Shown: in pieces, positions 25,502 through 33,992 of the stretch | Numbering within the stretch: the stretch's first letter is position 1 | How the letters are laid out: each line of letters starts with the position of its first letter | Virus record (IMG/VR): IMGVR_UViG_3300045988_012512 | Location: 1-43,981 of that record | Strand: one strand, 5' to 3' | DNA from: a virus | Taxonomy: Duplodnaviria; Heunggongvirae; Uroviricota; Caudoviricetes | Length of the DNA: 43,981 nt | Translations under genes and position numbers: made by a program | Notes under the pieces: model-generated | The model's input: only the letters and a program-made list of their open reading frames with translations | Told to the model about the DNA's origin: nothing | Databases searched by the model: none

Positions 25502-25684
25502 TCACCCAACTATCTCATCACCAAGCCACGCCGTTTCTCGTATATCATCGACCACACAGGCGGCGTGCTCACGGCTAATTGCAAAAATGTAGAAACTAAA
25601 CTTCTTCCCGTCGGCGTCGATATGGTTAACCGAGTAGGGTTTCCACAGGACACCATCAATTACTACTGGTTTAGGCGACTTCAT
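25502..25684 (-). CDS. hypothetical early protein
   Basis: 60-aa ORF in the coupled early operon. Confidence 0.3.
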   Translation of the reverse strand: MKSPKPVVIDGVLWKPYSVNHIDADGKKFSFYIFAISREHAACVVDDIRETAWLGDEIVG

Positions 25685-25919
25685 ACGCTTTACCGCATTT
25701 TAAGCATGTGACTCGATGCACCCCATCAACTAAATGCAGGCGGTAATCATGCTCGCAGGCGTTCATCTTTTCCCCTTCTCCTCTCAACAACATGAGAAGA
25801 ACCTTAAATGCGGCTAACTGGTACTCACCGTTAATCGACAGTTGCCCGCCTAGCGTCTGTTTCTCCGACTCAAGCACCAGAATACGGCGCTCGAGCGATG
25901 CGATTGTGATTTTAGGCAT
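25671..25919 (-). CDS. coiled-coil plus zinc-ribbon small protein
   Basis: C-terminal CEHDYRLH...CLKCGKAY; same Cys motif occurs twice in the 28964..29512 protein. Confidence 0.4.
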   Translation of the reverse strand: MPKITIASLERRILVLESEKQTLGGQLSINGEYQLAAFKVLLMLLRGEGEKMNACEHDYRLHLVDGVHRVTCLKCGKAYEVA

Positions 25920-26143
25920 TATTCTGCTCCCTCATAAAAATAACCATCGAAACTGTCGTTAGTAGGGGAAGGTTTGTTCAGGTTAAAGCGGTTAATCAGT
26001 TCGCGGCGTTGCTCCATCAGACGGTCTACCTTATTTGCGTAGTACTGAATCATAGTATCCAGGCAAGCAATCTCTGATTCGCCGTTGTCGGCAGGGCGGA
26101 GCGCAGCTTCTACACACGCTTTCTCATATTCACGGTCAGTCAT
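25919..26143 (-). CDS. hypothetical early protein
   Basis: 74-aa ORF; start overlaps upstream stop. Confidence 0.35.
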   Translation of the reverse strand: MTDREYEKACVEAALRPADNGESEIACLDTMIQYYANKVDRLMEQRRELINRFNLNKPSPTNDSFDGYFYEGAE

Positions 26144-26297
26144 TTTTACGCTCTCCCCACATGCGATTGAGATACTTGTTCTTGTCCGGCCCAGGGAAAC
26201 TGTTACGTTTCATCAGTTCCTCACGTGTCGGGAACGGTGTGTGACTGACTTTACGGCCTACTCGTAATGGTTGGCTTACTTGACCTTGTTCGCTCAT
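26136..26297 (-). CDS. hypothetical small protein (53 aa)
   Basis: ATG at 26297; TGATG coupling to the upstream gene. Confidence 0.3.
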   Translation of the reverse strand: MSEQGQVSQPLRVGRKVSHTPFPTREELMKRNSFPGPDKNKYLNRMWGERKND

Positions 26298-26461
26298 CAC
26301 TTAACCTCAACATAATCGGTAGTAAGGAATACAATTTCGCCGTTAACAATCAAAAGCGGTGTATCTTCGATGACGCTTTTAACCTCTACAAAATACCCAC
26401 CGTAACTGTCGTCTATAAACAGAACGTCTCCAGGTACTAAATCTGCGGCTAACTTGCTCAT
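26297..26461 (-). CDS. hypothetical small protein (54 aa)
   Basis: ATG at 26461 in an ATGA overlap with the upstream ORF. Confidence 0.3.
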   Translation of the reverse strand: MSKLAADLVPGDVLFIDDSYGGYFVEVKSVIEDTPLLIVNGEIVFLTTDYVEVK

Positions 26462-26607
26462 TTCTTCTCTCCTGCATAAGCTGCTTTCAGTGTCTGCATC
26501 GCGGCGAACCAGAACGCGTCCGCGGGAATGCTGTTGCTCAGGTTACTAACGGCGATTCGTGCCATCAGTTGTGCGTCTTTGAATGCTTCGATGTCTGTGA
26601 TTTTCAT
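26458..26607 (-). CDS. hypothetical small protein (49 aa)
   Basis: First gene after the promoter at 26642..26670; ATG at 26607. Confidence 0.3.
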   Translation of the reverse strand: MKITDIEAFKDAQLMARIAVSNLSNSIPADAFWFAAMQTLKAAYAGEKK

Positions 26608-26641
26608 TTCTCTCTACTCCGTTCTCGTTGTCGATGGAGTA

Positions 26642-26670
26642 AATATAATAGGGTCGAGGGTAATAGTCAA
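26642..26670 (-). promoter_or_regulatory. sigma70-type promoter (TTGACT-17-TATATT)
   Basis: Read on the minus strand, immediately after a strong terminator. Confidence 0.5.
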
Positions 26671-26692
26671 CTAGTCATTGCAGAAAATAGAT

Positions 26693-26723
26693 AAAAAAAA
26701 TCCCGGCTAGGTCAGGGCCGGGA
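26693..26723 (-). terminator. strong intrinsic terminator (7-bp GC stem followed by eight T)
   Basis: Minus strand reads TCCCGGCCCTGACCTAGCCGGGA then TTTTTTTT. Confidence 0.75.
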
Positions 26724-26760
26724 GAAACAGAGAGCAGAGGGATGATACAGGAGGTTGGTG
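26693..26760 (-). ncRNA. candidate small RNA (about 65 nt, CU-rich) between tandem terminators
   Basis: Promoter-like TTGACA-17-CATACT at 26794..26766 on the minus strand, then a pyrimidine-rich segment, then the terminator at 26723..26693. Confidence 0.25.
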
Positions 26761-26906
26761 AAACCAGTATGAAGCTGCCGTTGTTGGGTGTCAACAGAGA
26801 TTTCCGGCTCGCGTTACCGCACATCGGCCTGACCTTGTCACAGGTCCGCGCGGGGGATGATACCCGGAATGCCCGCAATGTTGTTTATCTTCTGTTGACG
26901 AAATAA

Positions 26907-26929
26907 AACCCGGATTCGCGGTCCGGGTT
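26907..26929 (-). terminator. intrinsic terminator downstream of the endolysin gene
   Basis: 8-bp stem AACCCGGA / TCCGGGTT followed on the minus strand by TTTATTTC. Confidence 0.5.
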
Positions 26930-26968
26930 TCGGGGTGGGGCAAGCACAAACAGCGCAGGGTGATTATA

Positions 26969-27457
26969 TCAGCCTTTCACCGCACGTCCAATAGCAACCG
27001 CCTCTTGCCACGGTTTACCGTCGAACAGTGCCAGACGTCCAGCGGTACGGCGGCGCAAGCCAAGTAATGGTTTGCCGTTCTGGTTGATGAACAGCGCCAG
27101 CTTGGCCCGCAGTGTCGCAACGTCGCCTGAGCGCAGTGCCTTACCGGTACCGGTAGTAGCTGCGATAACGCCAGCACCCGCGTTAAATACCAGGTCGCAC
27201 ACTGCATCGAACTGCGCCTGTGTCAGCGAATGGTGTGCGGCGGCGTCAACCGCAGCTACGGCCTTAGCCATGTCGCGATTCAGTAACAGGAGGCCTTGGC
27301 CTGGTGTGATGGTCTGCCCGGCCTTAACATGTGGGCCATAGCTTCCGTACCCAATAGTAAGGTACTTCTCATTTGGCGTAGCACGATACGCAGTCCCGCG
27401 GAACCCCTCGAACGCGGCGGTGAAATGCAGTCCATTATCTGAAATATTTCGAGACAC
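26969..27457 (-). CDS. endolysin (GH24 lysozyme / T4 lysozyme-like)
   Basis: LHFTAAFEGFRGTAYRATPNEKYLTIGYG catalytic motif; GGAGG RBS before GTG at 27457 (ORF track extends to 27508). Confidence 0.75.
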   Translation of the reverse strand: MSRNISDNGLHFTAAFEGFRGTAYRATPNEKYLTIGYGSYGPHVKAGQTITPGQGLLLLNRDMAKAVAAVDAAAHHSLTQAQFDAVCDLVFNAGAGVIAATTGTGKALRSGDVATLRAKLALFINQNGKPLLGLRRRTAGRLALFDGKPWQEAVAIGRAVKG

Positions 27458-27707
27458 GCTTATGTCCTCCGTATGACAGCCACGCCTGACGAATCTGGCG
27501 CAGCGCAACTAATGTGATTAATGTCTCAGGCAGCGTTGGTGACACGCTGCCCTGTAACAGGTGGATACATCCGGCGGCGCAGACGATAGCAGTCAGGATA
27601 TAGAGCACCCGGCCGAACAGCCCGTCATCAACGCTGGGATGGTACACATTAAACAGCGATGTACCCCCGATTGCCAGCATACCGCCGAACCAGAATAACT
27701 CATTCAT
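27435..27707 (-). CDS. holin-like membrane protein
   Basis: About 90 aa from ATG 27707 (MNELFWFGGMLAIGG...) with 2-3 hydrophobic helices, immediately upstream of the endolysin. Confidence 0.55.
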   Translation of the reverse strand: MNELFWFGGMLAIGGTSLFNVYHPSVDDGLFGRVLYILTAIVCAAGCIHLLQGSVSPTLPETLITLVALRQIRQAWLSYGGHKRVSKYFR

Positions 27708-28008
27708 CCGGGCCTCCTCGACGTGAGATGTATTCCCCGGCGACGATACCGGAGAGGCGGGAATAGATAGGCATCCAGAGAATAGCGATGATGAAACCCA
27801 GACCAGCGATTTCACGCTCCCCGGTAATGCCGAACCATTGGGCAGCGAGAGGCGCACCGAATACGGCGCAAGCGAAGCCGGTTACAATAAAGAATAAGCC
27901 GTCGATGGGTCCAGAAATAACGGACTTATGTTGTCGTAGTCCGATGACCCCTCCGGCGAGTGCGGCAGCGAGAAGCCAGCCTGTCACTGTTTCAGTAAAT
28001 TTATCCAA
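27700..28008 (-). CDS. holin / antiholin-like membrane protein (three predicted transmembrane helices)
   Basis: 102 aa with three hydrophobic segments; adjacent to the second holin-like gene. Confidence 0.55.
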   Translation of the reverse strand: MDKFTETVTGWLLAAALAGGVIGLRQHKSVISGPIDGLFFIVTGFACAVFGAPLAAQWFGITGEREIAGLGFIIAILWMPIYSRLSGIVAGEYISRRGGPDE

Positions 28009-28083
28009 GATGAATCCTCCAGGTGCGTATTAAGTATGCAGTAACTGGAGGATAGCACGGTTAGGAATTATCTTAATAACGGT

Positions 28084-28377
28084 TTATTTATGACGCCAGA
28101 TGTATTGTCGTCTCTGCGGTTTCGTCGGAATATCATCGTATCCGAGCGATTTCCAGTAATTAAATAACCGATTAGCGATTGCAGCGCGTTCCTGCGTTTT
28201 AAACTCACCGAGATTCACGGCCTTCCAGTTCTGGAATCCACAGGCGCGGACAGCTTTGCGTCGGGCCTGAATCTCAGGGTACAGCGCGTTACCCCGACGC
28301 TTGCATATCTGTGTTTTAGCTCTCGGTGACAGCGGCGAGAGGCCGCTTCGTTTCAGGATGTCAGTTGCAAGGCTCAT
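28084..28377 (-). CDS. hypothetical basic protein
   Basis: Likely start at ATG 28377 (ATGA overlap); ORF track extends to 28422. Confidence 0.35.
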   Translation of the reverse strand: MSLATDILKRSGLSPLSPRAKTQICKRRGNALYPEIQARRKAVRACGFQNWKAVNLGEFKTQERAAIANRLFNYWKSLGYDDIPTKPQRRQYIWRHK

Positions 28378-28565
28378 ATACCGAGAATCCCGCTGGCCAT
28401 TTCTTCGGTAGCTTTCGAACACGGCTCATACATTACCTGTTCAGCGAAGTTACGCAGCTTATGCTCAAGCGCCGCGTAATCATCGTATGTCACATAGTCG
28501 CCGTAGTCCCATTTAGCCATCTCAGGCTCTTCCCATCTGGTAGATAATTCGTATCTCTGTACCAT
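28374..28565 (-). CDS. small protein, paralogue B (MVQRYEL...)
   Basis: Begins with the same ATGGT-CAGAGATA nucleotide string as the adjacent paralogue. Confidence 0.35.
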   Translation of the reverse strand: MVQRYELSTRWEEPEMAKWDYGDYVTYDDYAALEHKLRNFAEQVMYEPCSKATEEMASGILGI

Positions 28566-28763
28566 CACTCCACCCCTTCCACATGTGTAACTGACCCACA
28601 GTTCGCGCACTCGACGTAATCCGGGAACTGGTCTTTGTATTTCTGCAACTCGGCTTTTAGTTTCGCATAGTCCCTGTAGCCAACCCATTCACCGTCTGCG
28701 TCTTTCTCTAAATCGATATGCCCGGTAACCCAGTCTTCTTTTAAATCATATCTCTGCACCATG
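28565..28763 (-). CDS. small protein, paralogue A (MVQRYDL..., C-terminal CANCG)
   Basis: AGGAG RBS before ATG 28763; tandem paralogue of 28374..28565. Confidence 0.4.
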
Positions 28764-28967
28764 TTATCTCTCCTGTTTACCAAGTCGCTTAGGTGAGCAG
28801 ATAGCGCGTACCTCTGAATCGTTTGGCTTGTCACCCTGAAACAGGAAGTGCGCGTTCTCTGCGGCGCGTGCCGCTGACTGGCACGCCTCCATCGAATAAA
28901 ACGTTTCTGATGCAGCGAGTTGCATCTGGCCTGCGGACAATACCCAGATAAATAAGATGCTGGTCAT
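28764..28967 (-). CDS. small protein with N-terminal hydrophobic signal or anchor
   Basis: MTSILFIWVLSAGQMQLAAS hydrophobic N-terminus, two Cys; ATGA coupling. Confidence 0.4.
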   Translation of the reverse strand: MTSILFIWVLSAGQMQLAASETFYSMEACQSAARAAENAHFLFQGDKPNDSEVRAICSPKRLGKQER

Positions 28968-29512
28968 GTCGTCTCTCCACATCTGCGGCACACAAAATAA
29001 TCCTCGTCGGCATCAAGAACCCAATCATGATCACATTCCTGAGTATCGTTTTTCGGTTTATATTCCTTGTCGTCCCACTCACGTTCACCACATTTAGAGC
29101 AAAGCTCGCTACCAGGAACGTTGTTCGGATTGCCTTCGCTGAGAAACAACCCAGGCATAATAATCCAAGAGTGCTCGCATTCCTGGGTATCTTCTTTACG
29201 GCAACCAGATTGCTCCGGCGGTACAGGCGTCTGGGTGCACCGACAATTTACCGTTGGCCCGGGCGCATGTTCGCCAACCACGTAGCTCTGGCCCCTAGAA
29301 ATGTACCCACCCTTACGCACAAGTTTGTAAGCCTCTACATCCCCGGTGGCGGTAGCCAGCGCCATATGTAACTCCTTAATCTGCACCGAAGCATCACGTA
29401 ACTGATTCTTAAGTGACTGCACCTCATGAGCCAGGTCTTCGCTCCGGCTGTTATTTACCTGCTGCCGTAGCTGGTCGATCAGGTACTCGAATATTTCGTT
29501 TTTGTTACTCAT
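28964..29512 (-). CDS. coiled-coil protein with two zinc-ribbon-like repeats
   Basis: QECEHSWII...CSKCGERE and QECDHDWVL...CRRCGET; start at ATG 29512 (ORF track 29533). Confidence 0.45.
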   Translation of the reverse strand: MSNKNEIFEYLIDQLRQQVNNSRSEDLAHEVQSLKNQLRDASVQIKELHMALATATGDVEAYKLVRKGGYISRGQSYVVGEHAPGPTVNCRCTQTPVPPEQSGCRKEDTQECEHSWIIMPGLFLSEGNPNNVPGSELCSKCGEREWDDKEYKPKNDTQECDHDWVLDADEDYFVCRRCGETT

Positions 29513-30800: not shown

Positions 30801-31152
30801 GAGAATAGTTACGTTGCCGTTGTGATTCTTTCGTTTCTTTAAAGAGTACGCAACGCAGTGGGTGGGCGATAGCCCACCCCAGCGGAGTGAAGTACTCTCT
30901 ACCTTGCTTACGGCAACTAAAGAAACTTTTAATTATCAAGTACTTATGAATGGAGGTAAAATTTAAATAGACGGGGTCTTTCTTGTCACTTGCTGTTACT
31001 TTTAGGAAACTTAGATACTAACGTTACCAAGAGTACTGTTTAGCGCCCCGCTTTAGGGCGGGGCTTTAAGTACCCGAGACTTAAGAATAATGTTTCTAAG
31101 TAATTCTGAACTAAGGCCCTTCGATACGTTGATTTTACAGCTACATTTTATT
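30801..31152. promoter_or_regulatory. divergent control region with nested palindromes, AGTAC repeats and a conserved hairpin
   Basis: About 350 bp without credible ORFs between divergent operons; inverted repeat AGAGTAC/GTACTCT around an 8-bp GC hairpin; hairpin element at 31042..31068. Confidence 0.5.
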
Positions 31153-31192
31153 TTGTCAATAGGTTGTGTTTAGTTATTATAGGTGTTATAGT
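31153..31192 (+). promoter_or_regulatory. tandem sigma70-type promoters (TTGTCA-16-TATTAT and TTGTGT-17-TATAGT) for the plus-strand operon
   Basis: Hexamers with canonical spacing upstream of the gene at 31222. Confidence 0.45.
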
Positions 31193-31724: not shown

Positions 31725-33992
31725 ATGTCCGATGTAATTTTATCCTACTCGTGGTCTCGTCGCAACGCGCGGGCAGAGAAAAAGGATATAAACGTCAGAA
31801 CCACACACACGGCAACACTGGACGACCTGAAAGAGTTAATCCAGCCGCTTGATGCTGTCCGTGACGGAATTAACCCGAAGACAGCGCCCGGTTATATCAC
31901 CGCCGCGTGCGACTCAACGCACAGCACCGTAAAAGACCCGGAAACCGGTGACTTTAAGCGAGCGCGTAAAGGCTTCTTCTATCGCTGTGACGCGTCTGTA
32001 AGCAAATCATCGCTGGCGTATCTGGACTTTGACAGCGCAACGCCGGAAGAGTATCAGGAAGCGGTGCGCCTGGTTAAGCGTAGCCGCCAGGCTATGTGTC
32101 TCTACACCACGGCATCCCATACCGATGAGTCACCGCGCTTTCGCGTCGTCATGCCGCTGGGCCGCCCGGTCGAAGGGGGCGACATCATCCGCATACGTCA
32201 TGGATTGCTGGAGCACTTCTTCAAAGGCATGGGCGCTGACCGTAGCGGGTTCACTTTGTCTCAGCCCATGTACCTTCCTCCGGTAGGCTCTCAGGTTATC
32301 TGGTCGCGCCGTAACGACCTTATTGACCCGGAAGAGTTACTGGAAGGCATCCCCGCCGTTGACGTTAGCAGCGCATCTGACTACCAGATACCGGAAGAAC
32401 TGCGCACTGCATTTACTGATGCGTTCGAGGCACTGGCGTTCGAATACGGCGGCATCATGACGCCGCGTGGCCTTAAGATGCCCGCCACACCGGAACACGC
32501 AGAAAACTACAGCGACCCGACCCCGCGCCCGGACGACTTCCTGCTGTGCTTCCCGCGCGAGGGATATGAAGCGCCGAACGTAACGATGATTCACGACACC
32601 GACATCACGGCAACCGAAGGCATGTCGCCGAAAGAGGTGTGGAAGTATGCGTGTGATGCGACCGGACTGCCGTTCAGTGAAGTCGCAGAGGCCATCGGAT
32701 GGGGCGCGCGTGAAGCCGTCTCATGCAGCCTGGATGACCTTGAAGACGACGAGGACTCAGAGGAGGACGAGTTACCGGAACCGGTAAAGGCTGATTTCGT
32801 CGTTGAGGGGTACATGCCGTCGGATTGTATCTGGGATATTGTTGGGGAGTCTGGCACGTATAAATCATTCTATACGCTGGGGATGATGTACCTGAGCGCC
32901 GCCGGATACCGGTTTGCCGGGGCAGATACCCAGCGTTGCCACCATTTCTATATCGACGGTGAGGGCGGTGCCACTACACGCACCCGTATTGATGCACTCG
33001 CGGCTAAATATGGCGAGGAAGGTAAAGATTATGTACATGTTATCGATATGGGTGAAGTCGGAAAACTGAAAAGCCTGATTAAGTTAATGCGCGAAACTGC
33101 GGGTGATGAACCCATCGGCATGGTCGCGTTCGACACCCTTAACCAGACGCTGGCCCTGACGATTGATAAGTTCGACGAGAACAGTTCATCAACGGCAATC
33201 GGCATGGGTAAAGTTATCGCCATCCTGAAAGAAGTACGCGACGCAACTAAAGCCGCGGCAGGCGTTGTACACCATACGCCGAAGGGTGGAAAGAAAGCCC
33301 GTGGCAGTGGAGCATTGTATGCTGGTGTCGACGTGGAACTGACAATCGAACGTGCTACCGACCGTCAGATAAACGTATACCACTCTAAATTTAAGCACGG
33401 GCCTCAACAGAAGACGGTTGGCATGGTACTGGAGTCGGTACAGTTTCGTGAAGCACCGCCGCCGAAAGAGTACCGCGCGGTTGAGTTCCTCGGTAGCACA
33501 GAGGAATACGGCACAATAGTAAACCTCGACCTGCCTGAGCCGCACAAGGCGCTTGTGCTGATGCCGTGGGGCTTCGAGCCGTTCAAGACTGATGAGGAGA
33601 AAGAGCGGGAAGAAGGGTTAACTAACGAAGGTAAACAAAATGTACGTAAAACCGTAGAGAACGCCGTCAACAGTTCCGAGTCCACTATACTCGCGGCGTT
33701 TGAACTGGCGGAGGGGACCTACAACGGCAACGAAGGTATCACGGTATCCGCGGCGAATAAGCTCGCACAGTCTGACCCCAACGCAAAGGCGTTTAACTCC
33801 AAAGAAGCCATAGAACGCGGGAAGATTAAGAAAATGGTTGAGGCTGGGTATCTTGTTCCGGGTACTGACGAAAACAATCAGATAATCCCAGGCCGTTACA
33901 GACTTAACACCCGGATAACGGATAACAAGATTCCGAAGACAATATACGAACCCAATGAGATGCTGACAGTGACAGAGGAGGATTTGGAATGA
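31725..33992 (+). CDS. replication protein: primase-like N-terminal domain plus RecA-like ATPase/helicase domain
   Basis: N-terminal LAYLDFD and SHTDESPRFRV (primase-polymerase-like); central GESGTYKS P-loop and MVAFDTL Walker-B-like segment. Confidence 0.55.
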   Translation: MSDVILSYSWSRRNARAEKKDINVRTTHTATLDDLKELIQPLDAVRDGINPKTAPGYITAACDSTHSTVKDPETGDFKRARKGFFYRCDASVSKSSLAYLDFDSATPEEYQEAVRLVKRSRQAMCLYTTASHTDESPRFRVVMPLGRPVEGGDIIRIRHGLLEHFFKGMGADRSGFTLSQPMYLPPVGSQVIWSRRNDLIDPEELLEGIPAVDVSSASDYQIPEELRTAFTDAFEALAFEYGGIMTPRGLKMPATPEHAENYSDPTPRPDDFLLCFPREGYEAPNVTMIHDTDITATEGMSPKEVWKYACDATGLPFSEVAEAIGWGAREAVSCSLDDLEDDEDSEEDELPEPVKADFVVEGYMPSDCIWDIVGESGTYKSFYTLGMMYLSAAGYRFAGADTQRCHHFYIDGEGGATTRTRIDALAAKYGEEGKDYVHVIDMGEVGKLKSLIKLMRETAGDEPIGMVAFDTLNQTLALTIDKFDENSSSTAIGMGKVIAILKEVRDATKAAAGVVHHTPKGGKKARGSGALYAGVDVELTIERATDRQINVYHSKFKHGPQQKTVGMVLESVQFREAPPPKEYRAVEFLGSTEEYGTIVNLDLPEPHKALVLMPWGFEPFKTDEEKEREEGLTNEGKQNVRKTVENAVNSSESTILAAFELAEGTYNGNEGITVSAANKLAQSDPNAKAFNSKEAIERGKIKKMVEAGYLVPGTDENNQIIPGRYRLNTRITDNKIPKTIYEPNEMLTVTEEDLE

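What the first reader, a model, noticed from the sequence alone, without database searches (positions are those of the whole stretch)
25671..29512. Recurrent coiled-coil plus zinc-ribbon motif in two early proteins
The 82-aa protein at 25671..25919 ends in CEHDYRLH...CLKCGKAY, and the 182-aa protein at 28964..29512 has two copies of the same pattern (QECEHSWII...CSKCGERE and QECDHDWVL...CRRCGET) after an N-terminal coiled coil. A shared Cys-Glu/Asp-His-x-aromatic ... Cys-x-x-Cys-Gly unit suggests a small zinc-binding module reused within the early region.
Basis: seen in the sequence. Interest (0 to 1): 0.45.

Follow-up and report, generated by a model that had tools for sequence, protein, structure and literature searches.

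The report
Shuffled zinc mini-domains on small phage proteins
Two small uncharacterised proteins of this Kagunavirus-type phage end in the same tiny Cys-His-Cys-Cys (probably zinc-binding) hairpin module, which related phages swap, stack (0-4 copies) and move between at least six small helical proteins; the repeat is real, but what it does is unknown.

Summary
The 82-aa ORF (25671..25919, -) carries one C-x-H-x-[YWF]...C-x-x-C-G unit and the 182-aa ORF (28964..29512, -) carries two. These are the only three such matches in all six frames of the window. A profile built only from modules of the 182-aa family finds the 82-aa protein's module at E=3e-6.

The window is a Kagunavirus (Guernseyvirinae) siphophage, about 91% identical to phages G AB-2017 and K1H.

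New here: the module is a mobile cassette.
- Homologs of the 182-aa protein keep a conserved heptad-repeat N-terminus but carry 0-4 modules of more than 20 subtypes, in many different orders. Nucleotide identity breaks sharply at module borders.
- Homologs of the 82-aa protein keep the helical hairpin but end in either the module or an acidic tail.
- The same module caps at least four further small-protein families in relatives.

AlphaFold gives a helical stalk plus a zinc-ribbon-like beta-hairpin. No Pfam or NCBIfam family matches at threshold, and both PHROG families are of unknown function.

Best reading: interchangeable zinc-stabilised binding heads on oligomerising stalks, acting as accessory host-interaction proteins. 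Both modules of the 182-aa protein are acidic (pI about 4.2), which argues against nucleic-acid binding. Zinc binding, "early" timing of the 82-aa gene and the function are all inferred, not shown.

The parts
28964..29512 (-). P2 gene, 182 aa (phrog_6094, unknown function): helical stalk, disordered linker and two CHCC modules
   Evidence: phrog_6094, E=1.5e-62. 1319 homologs. Annotated as a hypothetical protein in phages G AB-2017 and K1H.
29315..29512 (-). P2 aa 1-66: conserved heptad-repeat helical N-terminal domain, a putative oligomerising stalk
   Evidence: AF2 helices 3-21, 24-56 and 59-66, pLDDT 66-86. The conserved residues are the a/d hydrophobic positions. Only coiled-coil-type Pfam noise matches.
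29180..29314 (-). P2 aa 67-111: variable, predicted-disordered linker ending in the conserved peptide PEQSGCRKEDTQE (29180..29218) with invariant Cys104
   Evidence: pLDDT below 50 over residues 68-111. C104 is invariant in A1. The peptide is conserved at protein level while third codon positions vary.
29087..29179 (-). P2 module A, aa 112-142: CEHSWIIMPGLFLSEGNPNNVPGSELCSKCG, the long-hairpin CHCC module
   Evidence: The HMM for short modules matches both of its ends, with an insertion between them. It is the commonest subtype in the family (81 occurrences). The surrounding segment, aa 107-153, has pI 4.3.
28976..29035 (-). P2 module B, aa 160-180: CDHDWVLDADEDYFVCRRCG, the short CHCC module
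   Evidence: HMM 45 bits, E=3e-13. AF2 hairpin strands 164-166 and 173-175, pLDDT about 77. The segment aa 154-182 has pI 4.1.
29159..29197 (.). DNA direct-repeat copy 1, encoding K-E-DTQEC-E-H-S-W-I-I (linker plus start of module A)
   Evidence: 74% identity over 39 nt to 29015-29053, spacing 144 nt.
29015..29053 (.). DNA direct-repeat copy 2, encoding K-N-DTQEC-D-H-D-W-V-L (linker plus start of module B)
25671..25919 (-). P1 gene, 82 aa (phrog_9023, unknown function): helical hairpin plus one CHCC module
   Evidence: E=2.7e-46. 280 homologs. AF2 mean pLDDT 81.
25764..25919 (-). P1 aa 1-52: conserved helical hairpin scaffold (alone it corresponds to phrog_10200)
25692..25757 (-). P1 module, aa 55-76: CEHDYRLHLVDGVHRVTCLKCG
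   Evidence: E=3.3e-6 against the P2-family module HMM. AF2 strands 59-64, 67-72 and 78-80. C72, C75 and G76 are invariant; C55 and H57 are at least 90% conserved.
25919..26143 (-). 74-aa helical protein (phrog_1402), translationally coupled to P1 through a TAATG overlap. Here it ends in an acidic/aromatic tail; in the closest relative it ends in a CHCC module.
   Evidence: the G AB-2017 homolog is shared up to ...RRELINRFNLNK and then has CEHEFDYNPKDMYGQCIKCG. See also (L001, L011; fusion P0132).
28374..28762 (-). Two tandem MVQRY-family paralogs (28565..28762 and 28374..28565). They have no module here, but the family carries the CHCC module at its C-terminus in relatives.
   Evidence: for the paralogy (score 73, shuffle maximum 53). 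Searches (L036 10590-10898; P0268, P0302, P0310).
31132..31159 (-). Leftward sigma70-like promoter (TTGACA-16-TAAAAT, 11 of 12) at the divergent control region. P2 lies about 1.6 kb downstream in a run of small ORFs.
   Evidence: consensus match only. The GC-skew switch near 32 kb and the gene order in relatives agree.

Best explanation
P1 and P2 are accessory proteins built from two parts.

The first part is a conserved helical N-terminal scaffold: a heptad-repeat stalk in P2 and a helical hairpin in P1. It most likely mediates self-association.

The second part is one or more copies of a 20-30-residue CHCC mini-domain. Cys-x-His and Cys-x-x-Cys-Gly flank a beta-hairpin, giving a zinc-ribbon-like knuckle that most likely holds one Zn2+ ion.

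The mini-domain behaves as an interchangeable cassette. Within Guernseyvirinae it is duplicated in tandem, exchanged for other subtypes, replaced by acidic tails, and transplanted onto other small helical proteins, all by recombination at module borders.

The most likely mode of action is that each module subtype is a small, rigid, metal-stabilised binding head for a particular host or phage protein. The stalk presents several heads at once. On this view the proteins act as host-takeover or counter-defence adaptors or inhibitors, not as enzymes or DNA-binding regulators.

Shown here: the repeat, its conservation pattern, its modular shuffling, and the predicted helix-plus-hairpin fold.

Inferred: zinc binding, oligomerisation, protein targets, and expression timing.
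For: Repeat and ligand conservation.

Cassette behaviour:
- Among 120 P2 homologs the module count is 0 (5 proteins), 1 (28), 2 (52), 3 (32) or 4 (3). There are 27 sequence clusters of modules in many orders.
- Individual subtypes are well conserved. CEHSWIIMPGLFLSEGNPNNVPGSELCSKC occurs 81 times.
- Mosaic breakpoints are sharp. The L008 gene is 98-100% identical to the window for the first 120 nt and then 45-81%. L006 is 78-96% identical up to the linker and then 0-36% at the module.
- In the P1 family a conserved N-terminus carries alternative C-termini: the CHCC module, the acidic tail ...LLLSPEFDYGVDDESA, or others.
- The subtype CEHVWNRYIVHPHRKICLVC occurs on three different scaffolds.
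- A census of 43 loci (772 kb) finds modules on the P2, P1, 74-aa, MVQRY, DUF551-like, L041 'MVNRRNNM...' and 51-aa polymerase-adjacent families.

Fold:
- AF2 models: P1 pLDDT 81, helical hairpin plus three strands. P2 has helices 3-66, a disordered linker, and a hairpin in module B at pLDDT about 77.
- Sub-threshold Pfam hits are all zinc ribbons (DUF5817, A2L_zn_ribbon, TFIIB).
- A PDB profile search matches only the CxxCG knuckles of zinc ribbons (S27e, L32, RPB9).

Protein rather than nucleic-acid binding:
- P2 has pI 4.84 and net charge -12. Its module segments have pI 4.1-4.3. The mean hairpin charge across the family is -0.9.
- Alternative heads on the same scaffolds are acidic/aromatic tails.

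Accessory, variable location: a run of small ORFs downstream of the divergent promoter in a region covered only 66-83% by close relatives.
Against: - No metal, oligomer or partner was measured, and AF2 does not model zinc.
- A recurrent subtype has lost C-x-H (W-P-Y in P0022, P0041, P0081, P0101 and P0034). The metal is therefore not obligatory for every copy.
- Some subtypes are basic (hairpin charge +4) and could bind nucleic acid.
- The first 'knuckle', C-x-H, is non-canonical, and no curated zinc-ribbon family reaches threshold.
- The P2 model is poor overall (pLDDT 58, module A below 55).
- Kagunavirus isolates are reported as highly sensitive to RM systems (PMC11990801), so a broad anti-restriction role is unlikely. 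No known anti-defence or defence profile matches (PADLOC).
- Mosaicism of small ORFs is common in phages and could be partly neutral.
Confidence: 0.5

Rival explanations
1. The modules are nucleic-acid-binding zinc ribbons, and P1 and P2 are small transcription or translation regulators of the phage programme. This would be analogous to TFIIB/TFIIS ribbons, ribosomal zinc ribbons, Mu Com or the primase CHC2 fingers.
For: The only profile similarities, all sub-threshold, are to nucleic-acid-associated zinc ribbons. Some family modules are basic, such as CQHTNTVGLRKGFAPGFTKKCLDC with hairpin charge up to +4. P2 lies close to the divergent early control region.
Against: Both P2 modules and the whole protein are strongly acidic (pI 4.1-4.8, net -12). 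The hairpin of module B is DADEDY. There is no HTH or other DNA-binding domain. Combinatorial gain, loss and replacement by acidic tails is hard to reconcile with a conserved regulatory site in otherwise collinear genomes.
Confidence: 0.17
2. The module has no target of its own. It is a compact C-terminal 'cap' that stabilises or protects very small proteins from proteolysis, and the diversity is neutral mosaicism of dispensable ORFs.
For: The module is nearly always C-terminal or arrayed at the C-terminus of diverse short scaffolds. It can be replaced by unrelated tails or lose its ligands. Similar C-x-H-x-W...C-x-x-C-G repeats act as spacer-like repeats in huge secreted proteins with lectin, LRR and fn3 domains.
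Against: Individual subtypes are conserved across many phages, including the hairpin residues that a mere cap would not constrain. Arrays of up to four different subtypes are maintained. The linker peptide PEQSGCRKEDTQEC is conserved at protein level despite synonymous change.
Confidence: 0.2
3. The resemblance is a chance Cys/His pattern, or a cysteine motif that does not bind metal (for example disulfide or redox), with no common origin between P1 and P2.
For: The unit is short, and the P1-versus-P2 similarity rests mostly on C, H, an aromatic residue, C, C and G (22.5 bits). Ligand-less variants exist.
Against: Shuffle controls. The three sites are the only ones in the window. The linker plus module moves intact between families. 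These are cytoplasmic phage proteins, where structural disulfides are unlikely (general knowledge).
Confidence: 0.05

Closest known systems
Classical zinc ribbons (Pfam clan Zn_Beta_Ribbon: TFIIB Zn_Ribbon_TF, TFIIS, A2L_zn_ribbon, DUF5817; ribosomal S27e and L32)
   Same: A 2+2 ligand arrangement around a beta-hairpin. The second knuckle is the canonical x-x-C-x-x-C-G followed by a third strand.
   Different: The first knuckle is C-x-H followed by a conserved Trp/Tyr/Phe instead of C-P-x-C-G. No family reaches its gathering score (best E 0.0045-0.02 on isolated modules). The module occurs in shuffled tandem arrays on helical scaffolds.
DnaG/primase-type CHC2 zinc ribbon (Pfam zf-CHC2, PF01807); T4 gp32 CHCC zinc site
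   Same: A Cys-His-Cys-Cys ligand set in a ribbon-like hairpin (my own knowledge of these families, not tested beyond Pfam).
   Different: The spacing is C-x2-H-x17-C-x2-C in primases versus C-x-H-x(12-25)-C-x2-C here. There is no primase or ssDNA-binding domain, and no Pfam hit.
Coiled-coil plus C-terminal zinc-finger proteins: DksA/TraR (PF01258) and CT398/HP0958 (CT398_CC plus zf-RING_7)
   Same: The overall architecture: a helical hairpin or coiled coil followed by a small C-terminal zinc domain.
   Different: Those zinc sites are C4, with fixed single copies and conserved partners (the RNAP secondary channel; RpoN/FliH). The window proteins give no profile match. The only trace is E=0.009 to CT398_CC in one homolog, P0054.
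Lar-like restriction alleviation proteins (PF14354, phrog_3592) and other small phage zinc proteins (Pfam Phage_zn_bind_* series)
   Same: Small phage-encoded Cys-rich proteins in accessory regions.
   Different: P1 and P2 do not match them. Only the neighbouring 89-aa ORF gives a weak Lar hit (E=0.0098-0.14). Kagunaviruses are reported as RM-sensitive (PMC11990801).
PHROG families phrog_6094, phrog_9023 and phrog_10200 (unknown function)
   Same: P2 and P1 are clear members (E=1.5e-62, 2.7e-46 and 5.3e-19).
   Different: These are unannotated clusters. They do not describe the module or its shuffling.
Tandem C2H2 zinc-finger arrays (analogy only)
   Same: Arrays of small zinc-stabilised units whose number and order vary between paralogs or alleles.
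   Different: A different fold and ligand pattern, a eukaryotic DNA-binding context, and no homology. The C2H2 proteins are knuckle-only false positives.

Membership tests
Zinc ribbon (structural class) | Four conserved Cys/His ligands supplied as two pairs | tested here: met
   In P1-family alignment A3, chosen by family and not by motif, C72, C75 and G76 are invariant and C55 and H57 are at least 90% conserved. In P2-family alignment A1, C112 is invariant and H114, C138 and C141 are at least 90% conserved. The invariance seen in A2 is partly circular, because those modules were collected by regex.
Zinc ribbon (structural class) | A beta-hairpin between the ligand pairs, with a further strand after the second knuckle | tested here: met
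   AF2 P1 strands 59-64, 67-72 and 78-80, pLDDT 71-80. P2 module B strands 164-166 and 173-175, pLDDT about 77. Coordinates could not be inspected, so ligand geometry was not checked.
Zinc ribbon (structural class) | Canonical C-(P)-x-C-(G) first knuckle | tested here: not met
   The first pair is C-x-H in all three window copies and in the family.
Zinc ribbon (curated Pfam/NCBIfam families) | Profile match at the family's gathering score | tested here: not met
   Best hits on isolated modules are DUF5817 at 17.4 bits (cut-off 31), A2L_zn_ribbon at 16.1 (22.9) and TFIIB at 14.9 (29). NCBIfam YgiT_finger scores 17.6 (20.2), knuckle only.
Zinc ribbon (structural class) | Stoichiometric Zn2+ binding | not testable with these tools
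   Needs ICP-MS or a PAR assay, or a structure. Ligand-less W-P-Y variants exist.
DnaG-type CHC2 zinc finger (PF01807) | C-x2-H-x17-C-x2-C spacing, N-terminal to a primase domain, with a Pfam match | tested here: not met
   The spacing here is C-x-H. There is no zf-CHC2 hit at E up to 10 and no primase domain in these ORFs. The phage's helicase-primase is a separate gene at 31725..33992.
DksA/TraR (PF01258) | C4 zinc finger after a coiled coil, with a Pfam match | tested here: not met
   No hit at E up to 1 for P1 or P2.
CT398/HP0958 (PF24481 plus PF02591) | Coiled-coil hairpin plus a single C-terminal C4 ribbon, with Pfam matches | tested here: not met
   No hit for the window proteins. Only E=0.009, below cut-off, for the coiled coil of homolog P0054.
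Lar-like restriction alleviation (PF14354, phrog_3592) | Profile match; CPFCG...C-x2-C pattern | tested here: not met
   No hit for P1 or P2. Kagunaviruses are RM-sensitive in BASEL phenotyping.
PHROG phrog_6094 (P2) and phrog_9023 (P1) | Significant full-length profile match | tested here: met
   E=1.5e-62 (aa 8-188 of the 189-aa ORF against profile positions 1-137 of 142) and E=2.7e-46 (aa 1-80 against 2-81 of 81). Both are annotated 'unknown function'.
Known anti-phage defence proteins (PADLOC) | Profile match | tested here: not met
   No hit at E up to 1 for P1, P2 or the 74-aa protein. No library of anti-defence proteins was available to scan.

The most novel reading that the evidence does not exclude
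The CHCC mini-domains form a combinatorial repertoire of protein binders. Each conserved subtype would neutralise or hijack a different host factor, for example components of different defence systems. Guernseyvirinae phages would then tune their host compatibility by shuffling cassettes onto multivalent helical stalks. That would be a zinc-knuckle 'modular inhibitor array', a way of diversifying counter-defence or host takeover that has not been described for phages.
Probability: 0.2. Interest if true: 0.75.

Novelty: new variant of a known kind. Interest (0 to 1): 0.45.

Why it matters
If the modules are target-specific binding heads, these arrays would be a compact, naturally diversified library of about 25-residue metal-stabilised binders. 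The swap points are already mapped, which makes them easy to test and to engineer in a 41-44 kb phage group that is already used for synthetic biology.

It would also give a function to a large block of 'hypothetical' small ORFs. The P2 family alone has more than 1300 clusters at 90% identity in public data.

If the modules are only stabilising caps, the result still explains the recurrent Cys/His pattern and provides an HMM-definable domain for annotation.

Tried and rejected
- **Curated libraries.** Pfam, NCBIfam and PADLOC scans of the whole proteins, of isolated modules, and (Pfam and NCBIfam only) of distant module-bearing proteins gave nothing at threshold.
- **PDB profile search with the module alignment.** Only CxxCG knuckles of ribosomal and RNAP zinc ribbons matched, with no full-module hit.
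- **Foldseek against BFVD.** Only uncharacterised homologs, plus weak 27-30-residue matches to proteins labelled zinc ribbon or rubredoxin, E of about 0.14 to 0.6.
- **P2 model.** Too poor (pLDDT 58) for a fold search, so none was run. Model coordinates are not exposed, so Cys/His geometry could not be measured.
- **Idea that the conserved linker is a DNA-level recombination signal.** Rejected: third codon positions vary (major-base frequency 0.70 against 0.90-0.93 at positions 1 and 2), so the conservation is at the peptide level.
- **Link to the cryptic-prophage sensitivity of Bas74-76.** Rejected: the BASEL paper attributes it to O-antigen glycosylation and tailspike clades.
- **Literature searches** (Kagunavirus, Jerseyvirus or Guernseyvirinae with zinc, hypervariable, anti-defense or RNA-seq; zinc ribbon with phage terms). 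No description of this module was found.
- **Rfam and tRNA scans of the window.** Empty.
- **Fusions to domains of known function.** The only ones found were large secreted lectin/LRR/fn3 proteins, which may be convergent.

Full report
**What the window is.** The 5.5-kb region around the finding is 87-93% identical at the DNA level to Escherichia phages G AB-2017, K1H, fTaEco01 and many other Kagunavirus (Guernseyvirinae) siphophages. Coverage in even the closest relatives is only 66-83%, so this is a mosaic accessory region. Gene order follows those phages. A divergent control region lies near 31.1-31.2 kb, with a strong leftward sigma70-like promoter at 31159..31132. To its left comes a run of small minus-strand ORFs that includes P2, then holins and endolysin (28008..26969), then more small ORFs including P1, then NinH, terminase and structural genes.

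**Checking the observation.** Both ORFs translate exactly as quoted. P2's likely start is the ATG at 29512, preceded by AAGGGGTG; relatives annotate the same 182-aa product. Shuffles give 0.8 loose matches per window and none of the strict form. Shuffling the residues of P1 or P2 almost never recreates the pattern: 16 of 20000 for P1 and 0 of 20000 for two copies in P2.

I built an HMM from 121 short modules taken from P2 homologs only. It hits P1's C-terminus at 22.5 bits, E=3.3e-6, in a database of all 985 six-frame ORFs of the window. The next hit outside the P2 locus is at E=0.16. The two P2 copies are also a detectable DNA direct repeat of 39 nt at 74% identity, 144 nt apart. The observation therefore stands.

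**What the homologs show.** P2 belongs to a large family: 1319 clusters at E of 1e-3 or better, assigned to phrog_6094. The N-terminal roughly 66 residues are conserved, and the conserved residues are the a/d positions of a heptad repeat (L27, V31, L34, L38, A41, I45, L48, L52). Next comes a variable linker that always ends in PEQSGCRKEDTQEC.

Beyond that point the proteins differ radically. Among the top 120 the module count is 0 (5 proteins), 1 (28), 2 (52), 3 (32) or 4 (3). The modules fall into 27 sequence clusters arranged in many orders. Individual subtypes are well conserved, so the diversity comes from cassette gain, loss and exchange rather than from hypermutation.

At the DNA level the exchange points are abrupt. 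One relative (L008) is 98-100% identical to the window gene for 120 nt and then 45-81%. Another (L006) stays at 78-96% up to the linker and then collapses to 0-36% at the module. The linker is conserved as a peptide, not as DNA.

P1 belongs to phrog_9023 and has 280 homologs. It shows the same logic in miniature. The first roughly 44 residues are nearly invariant, and the C-terminus is either the CHCC module, an acidic tail (...LLLSPEFDYGVDDESA), or other tails ending in DESA.

The gene immediately upstream of P1 encodes a 74-aa protein and overlaps P1 through TAATG. In this window it ends in an acidic/aromatic tail. In the closest relative, G AB-2017, the same scaffold ends in CEHEFDYNPKDMYGQCIKCG.

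I took a census of 43 related loci (772 kb, 7852 ORFs). It finds the module on P2, P1, the 74-aa family, the MVQRY family (two tandem paralogs in this window, without the module), a DUF551-like protein, a family starting MVNRRNNM (L041) and a 51-61-aa protein next to the DNA polymerase. There were only about four spurious matches. One subtype, CEHVWNRYIVHPHRKICLVC, sits on three different scaffolds.

**Distribution beyond this phage group.** A profile of 42 non-redundant modules was searched against 1.84 billion representative proteins. It returned 98 hits at E of 1e-3 or better. They fall into four groups:
- Guernseyvirinae proteins.
- Unrelated small proteins of 36-270 aa with one to five tandem modules, for example P0250, P0267, P0284, P0293, P0303 and P0333.
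- Very large secreted proteins with lectin, LRR_5 or fn3 domains that contain similar repeats.
- Knuckle-only false positives from eukaryotic C2H2 proteins.

The unit is therefore widespread but unclassified.

**Fold.** With family alignments, AlphaFold2 models P1 at mean pLDDT 81 as a helical hairpin (6-22 and 29-52, pLDDT 95-97) followed by three short strands around the ligand positions. P2 is modelled at pLDDT 58: helices 3-66, a disordered stretch at 68-111, a poorly defined long module A, and a hairpin for module B at pLDDT about 77.

Fold searches returned only generic helical hairpins from the PDB. In BFVD they returned uncharacterised homologs plus weak local matches to proteins labelled zinc ribbon or rubredoxin.

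Sequence profiles agree. The only similarities, all below threshold, are to zinc ribbons. Structurally the module is best described as a zinc-ribbon-like hairpin with a non-canonical C-x-H first ligand pair and a conserved aromatic residue two positions after the His. I could not inspect coordinates, and no tool tests metal binding. A recurrent natural variant replaces C-x-H by W-P-Y, so some copies have probably become metal-independent.

**How it most likely works.** The anatomy is a conserved self-associating helical stalk, a flexible linker and one to four small rigid heads. The heads are conserved within a subtype, freely exchanged between proteins and phages, and interchangeable with acidic/aromatic tails. 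That fits multivalent presentation of protein-binding modules.

P2 is strongly acidic (pI 4.84, net charge -12). Its two module segments have pI 4.1-4.3 and module B has a DADEDY hairpin. This argues against nucleic-acid binding for this protein, although some subtypes elsewhere are basic.

The genes lie in the variable small-ORF regions typical of host-takeover or counter-defence functions, and P2 is shortly downstream of the leftward promoter. I therefore favour accessory host-interaction adaptors or inhibitors. My confidence is about 0.85 for the structural and evolutionary part and about 0.4 for the functional part, roughly 0.5 overall.

A broad anti-restriction role is unlikely, because BASEL Kagunavirus isolates are reported as highly RM-sensitive (PMC11990801).

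The rivals are nucleic-acid-binding regulators (0.17), neutral stabilising caps (0.20), and a chance or non-metal motif (0.05).

**Timing.** "Early" is an inference from position for P2. It is not supported for P1, which follows the lysis cassette. The only Kagunavirus time-course transcriptome I found classifies 4 of 57 genes as early, places lysozyme and NinH in the middle class, and does not resolve these genes (PMC12645636).

**Comparison with known families.** P1 and P2 are members of PHROG families of unknown function. They are not members of any curated zinc-ribbon family, nor of the primase CHC2, DksA/TraR, CT398/HP0958 or Lar families (see the membership table). The resemblance to those is architectural only. 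I found no description of this module or of its shuffling in the searchable literature.

**Verdict.** This is a real, statistically supported repeat. Zinc binding, early timing for P1, and function all remain untested. I rate it a new variant of a known kind: a zinc-ribbon-like mini-domain with a C-x-H first pair, deployed as a shuffled cassette array. Interest is moderate (0.45).

Noticed in passing
window 28374..28762 (-): Two tandem paralogous small genes start with MVQRY[DE]L (28565..28762, 65 aa; 28374..28565, 63 aa). Stop and start overlap in GTGATG. Local alignment score is 73, against a shuffle mean of 24 and maximum of 53. The listed 89-aa and 104-aa ORFs are probably over-extended at their 5' ends. 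In relatives this family carries the CHCC module at its C-terminus (L036, P0268, P0302, P0310).
   Followed up: partly
window 25919..26143 (-) and L001 3722..3967: The 74-aa helical protein is translationally coupled to P1 through TAATG. Its ortholog in phage G AB-2017 swaps the acidic/aromatic tail PSPTNDSFDGYFYEGAE for a CHCC module. Fused 74-aa-plus-P1 ORFs exist in metagenomes (P0125, P0132, P0135).
   Followed up: partly
P2 homologs P0022, P0041, P0081, P0101, P0034: One module subtype occurs in two forms: with ligands (ECKHSFYYVITDGSAPFGTKVCKTCG) and without the first pair (EWPYRFYYVVTDGSAPFGTKVCKTCG). This looks like a natural loss of the C-x-H ligands, possibly a metal-independent version.
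   Followed up: no
window 29180..29218 (-), P2 aa 99-111: The linker peptide PEQSGCRKEDTQE, with invariant Cys104, precedes the first module in essentially all homologs. It travels with the module onto other scaffolds (P0268, P0278). It is conserved at protein level but not at DNA level. The role of this extra Cys is unexplained.
   Followed up: partly
L003 31164..31349; L006 1147..1302; L007, L024, L026: A 51-61-aa ORF (MFFCKHVYRYMKPLPWYADEYRAGYRHVWICRDC) carrying a related C-x-H...C-x-x-C pattern sits next to the DNA polymerase gene in several relatives. It is absent from this window.
   Followed up: no
P0249, P0258, P0263, P0270, P0281, P0294, P0304 (representative search): Similar C-x-H-x-W...C-x-x-C-G repeats occur in very large secreted or lipoprotein-like proteins, together with ricin/C-type lectin, BspA-type LRR and fn3 domains. 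They may be a related extracellular repeat or a case of convergence.
   Followed up: partly
window 26608..26968: A gap of about 360 nt without a convincing ORF lies between the small-ORF cluster and the endolysin. It contains minus-strand promoter-like sites at 26794..26766 and 26670..26642 (10 of 12 each). There is no Rfam hit. The same gap exists in G AB-2017.
   Followed up: no
window 28565..28834 (-), C-terminus of the first MVQRY protein: The protein ends in ...DYVECANCGSVTHVEGVE, a lone C-x-x-C-G-x3-H half-site with weak Lar-like hits (phrog_3592 E=0.0098; PF14354 E=0.14). In P0302 the same sequence is followed directly by a CHCC module.
   Followed up: no
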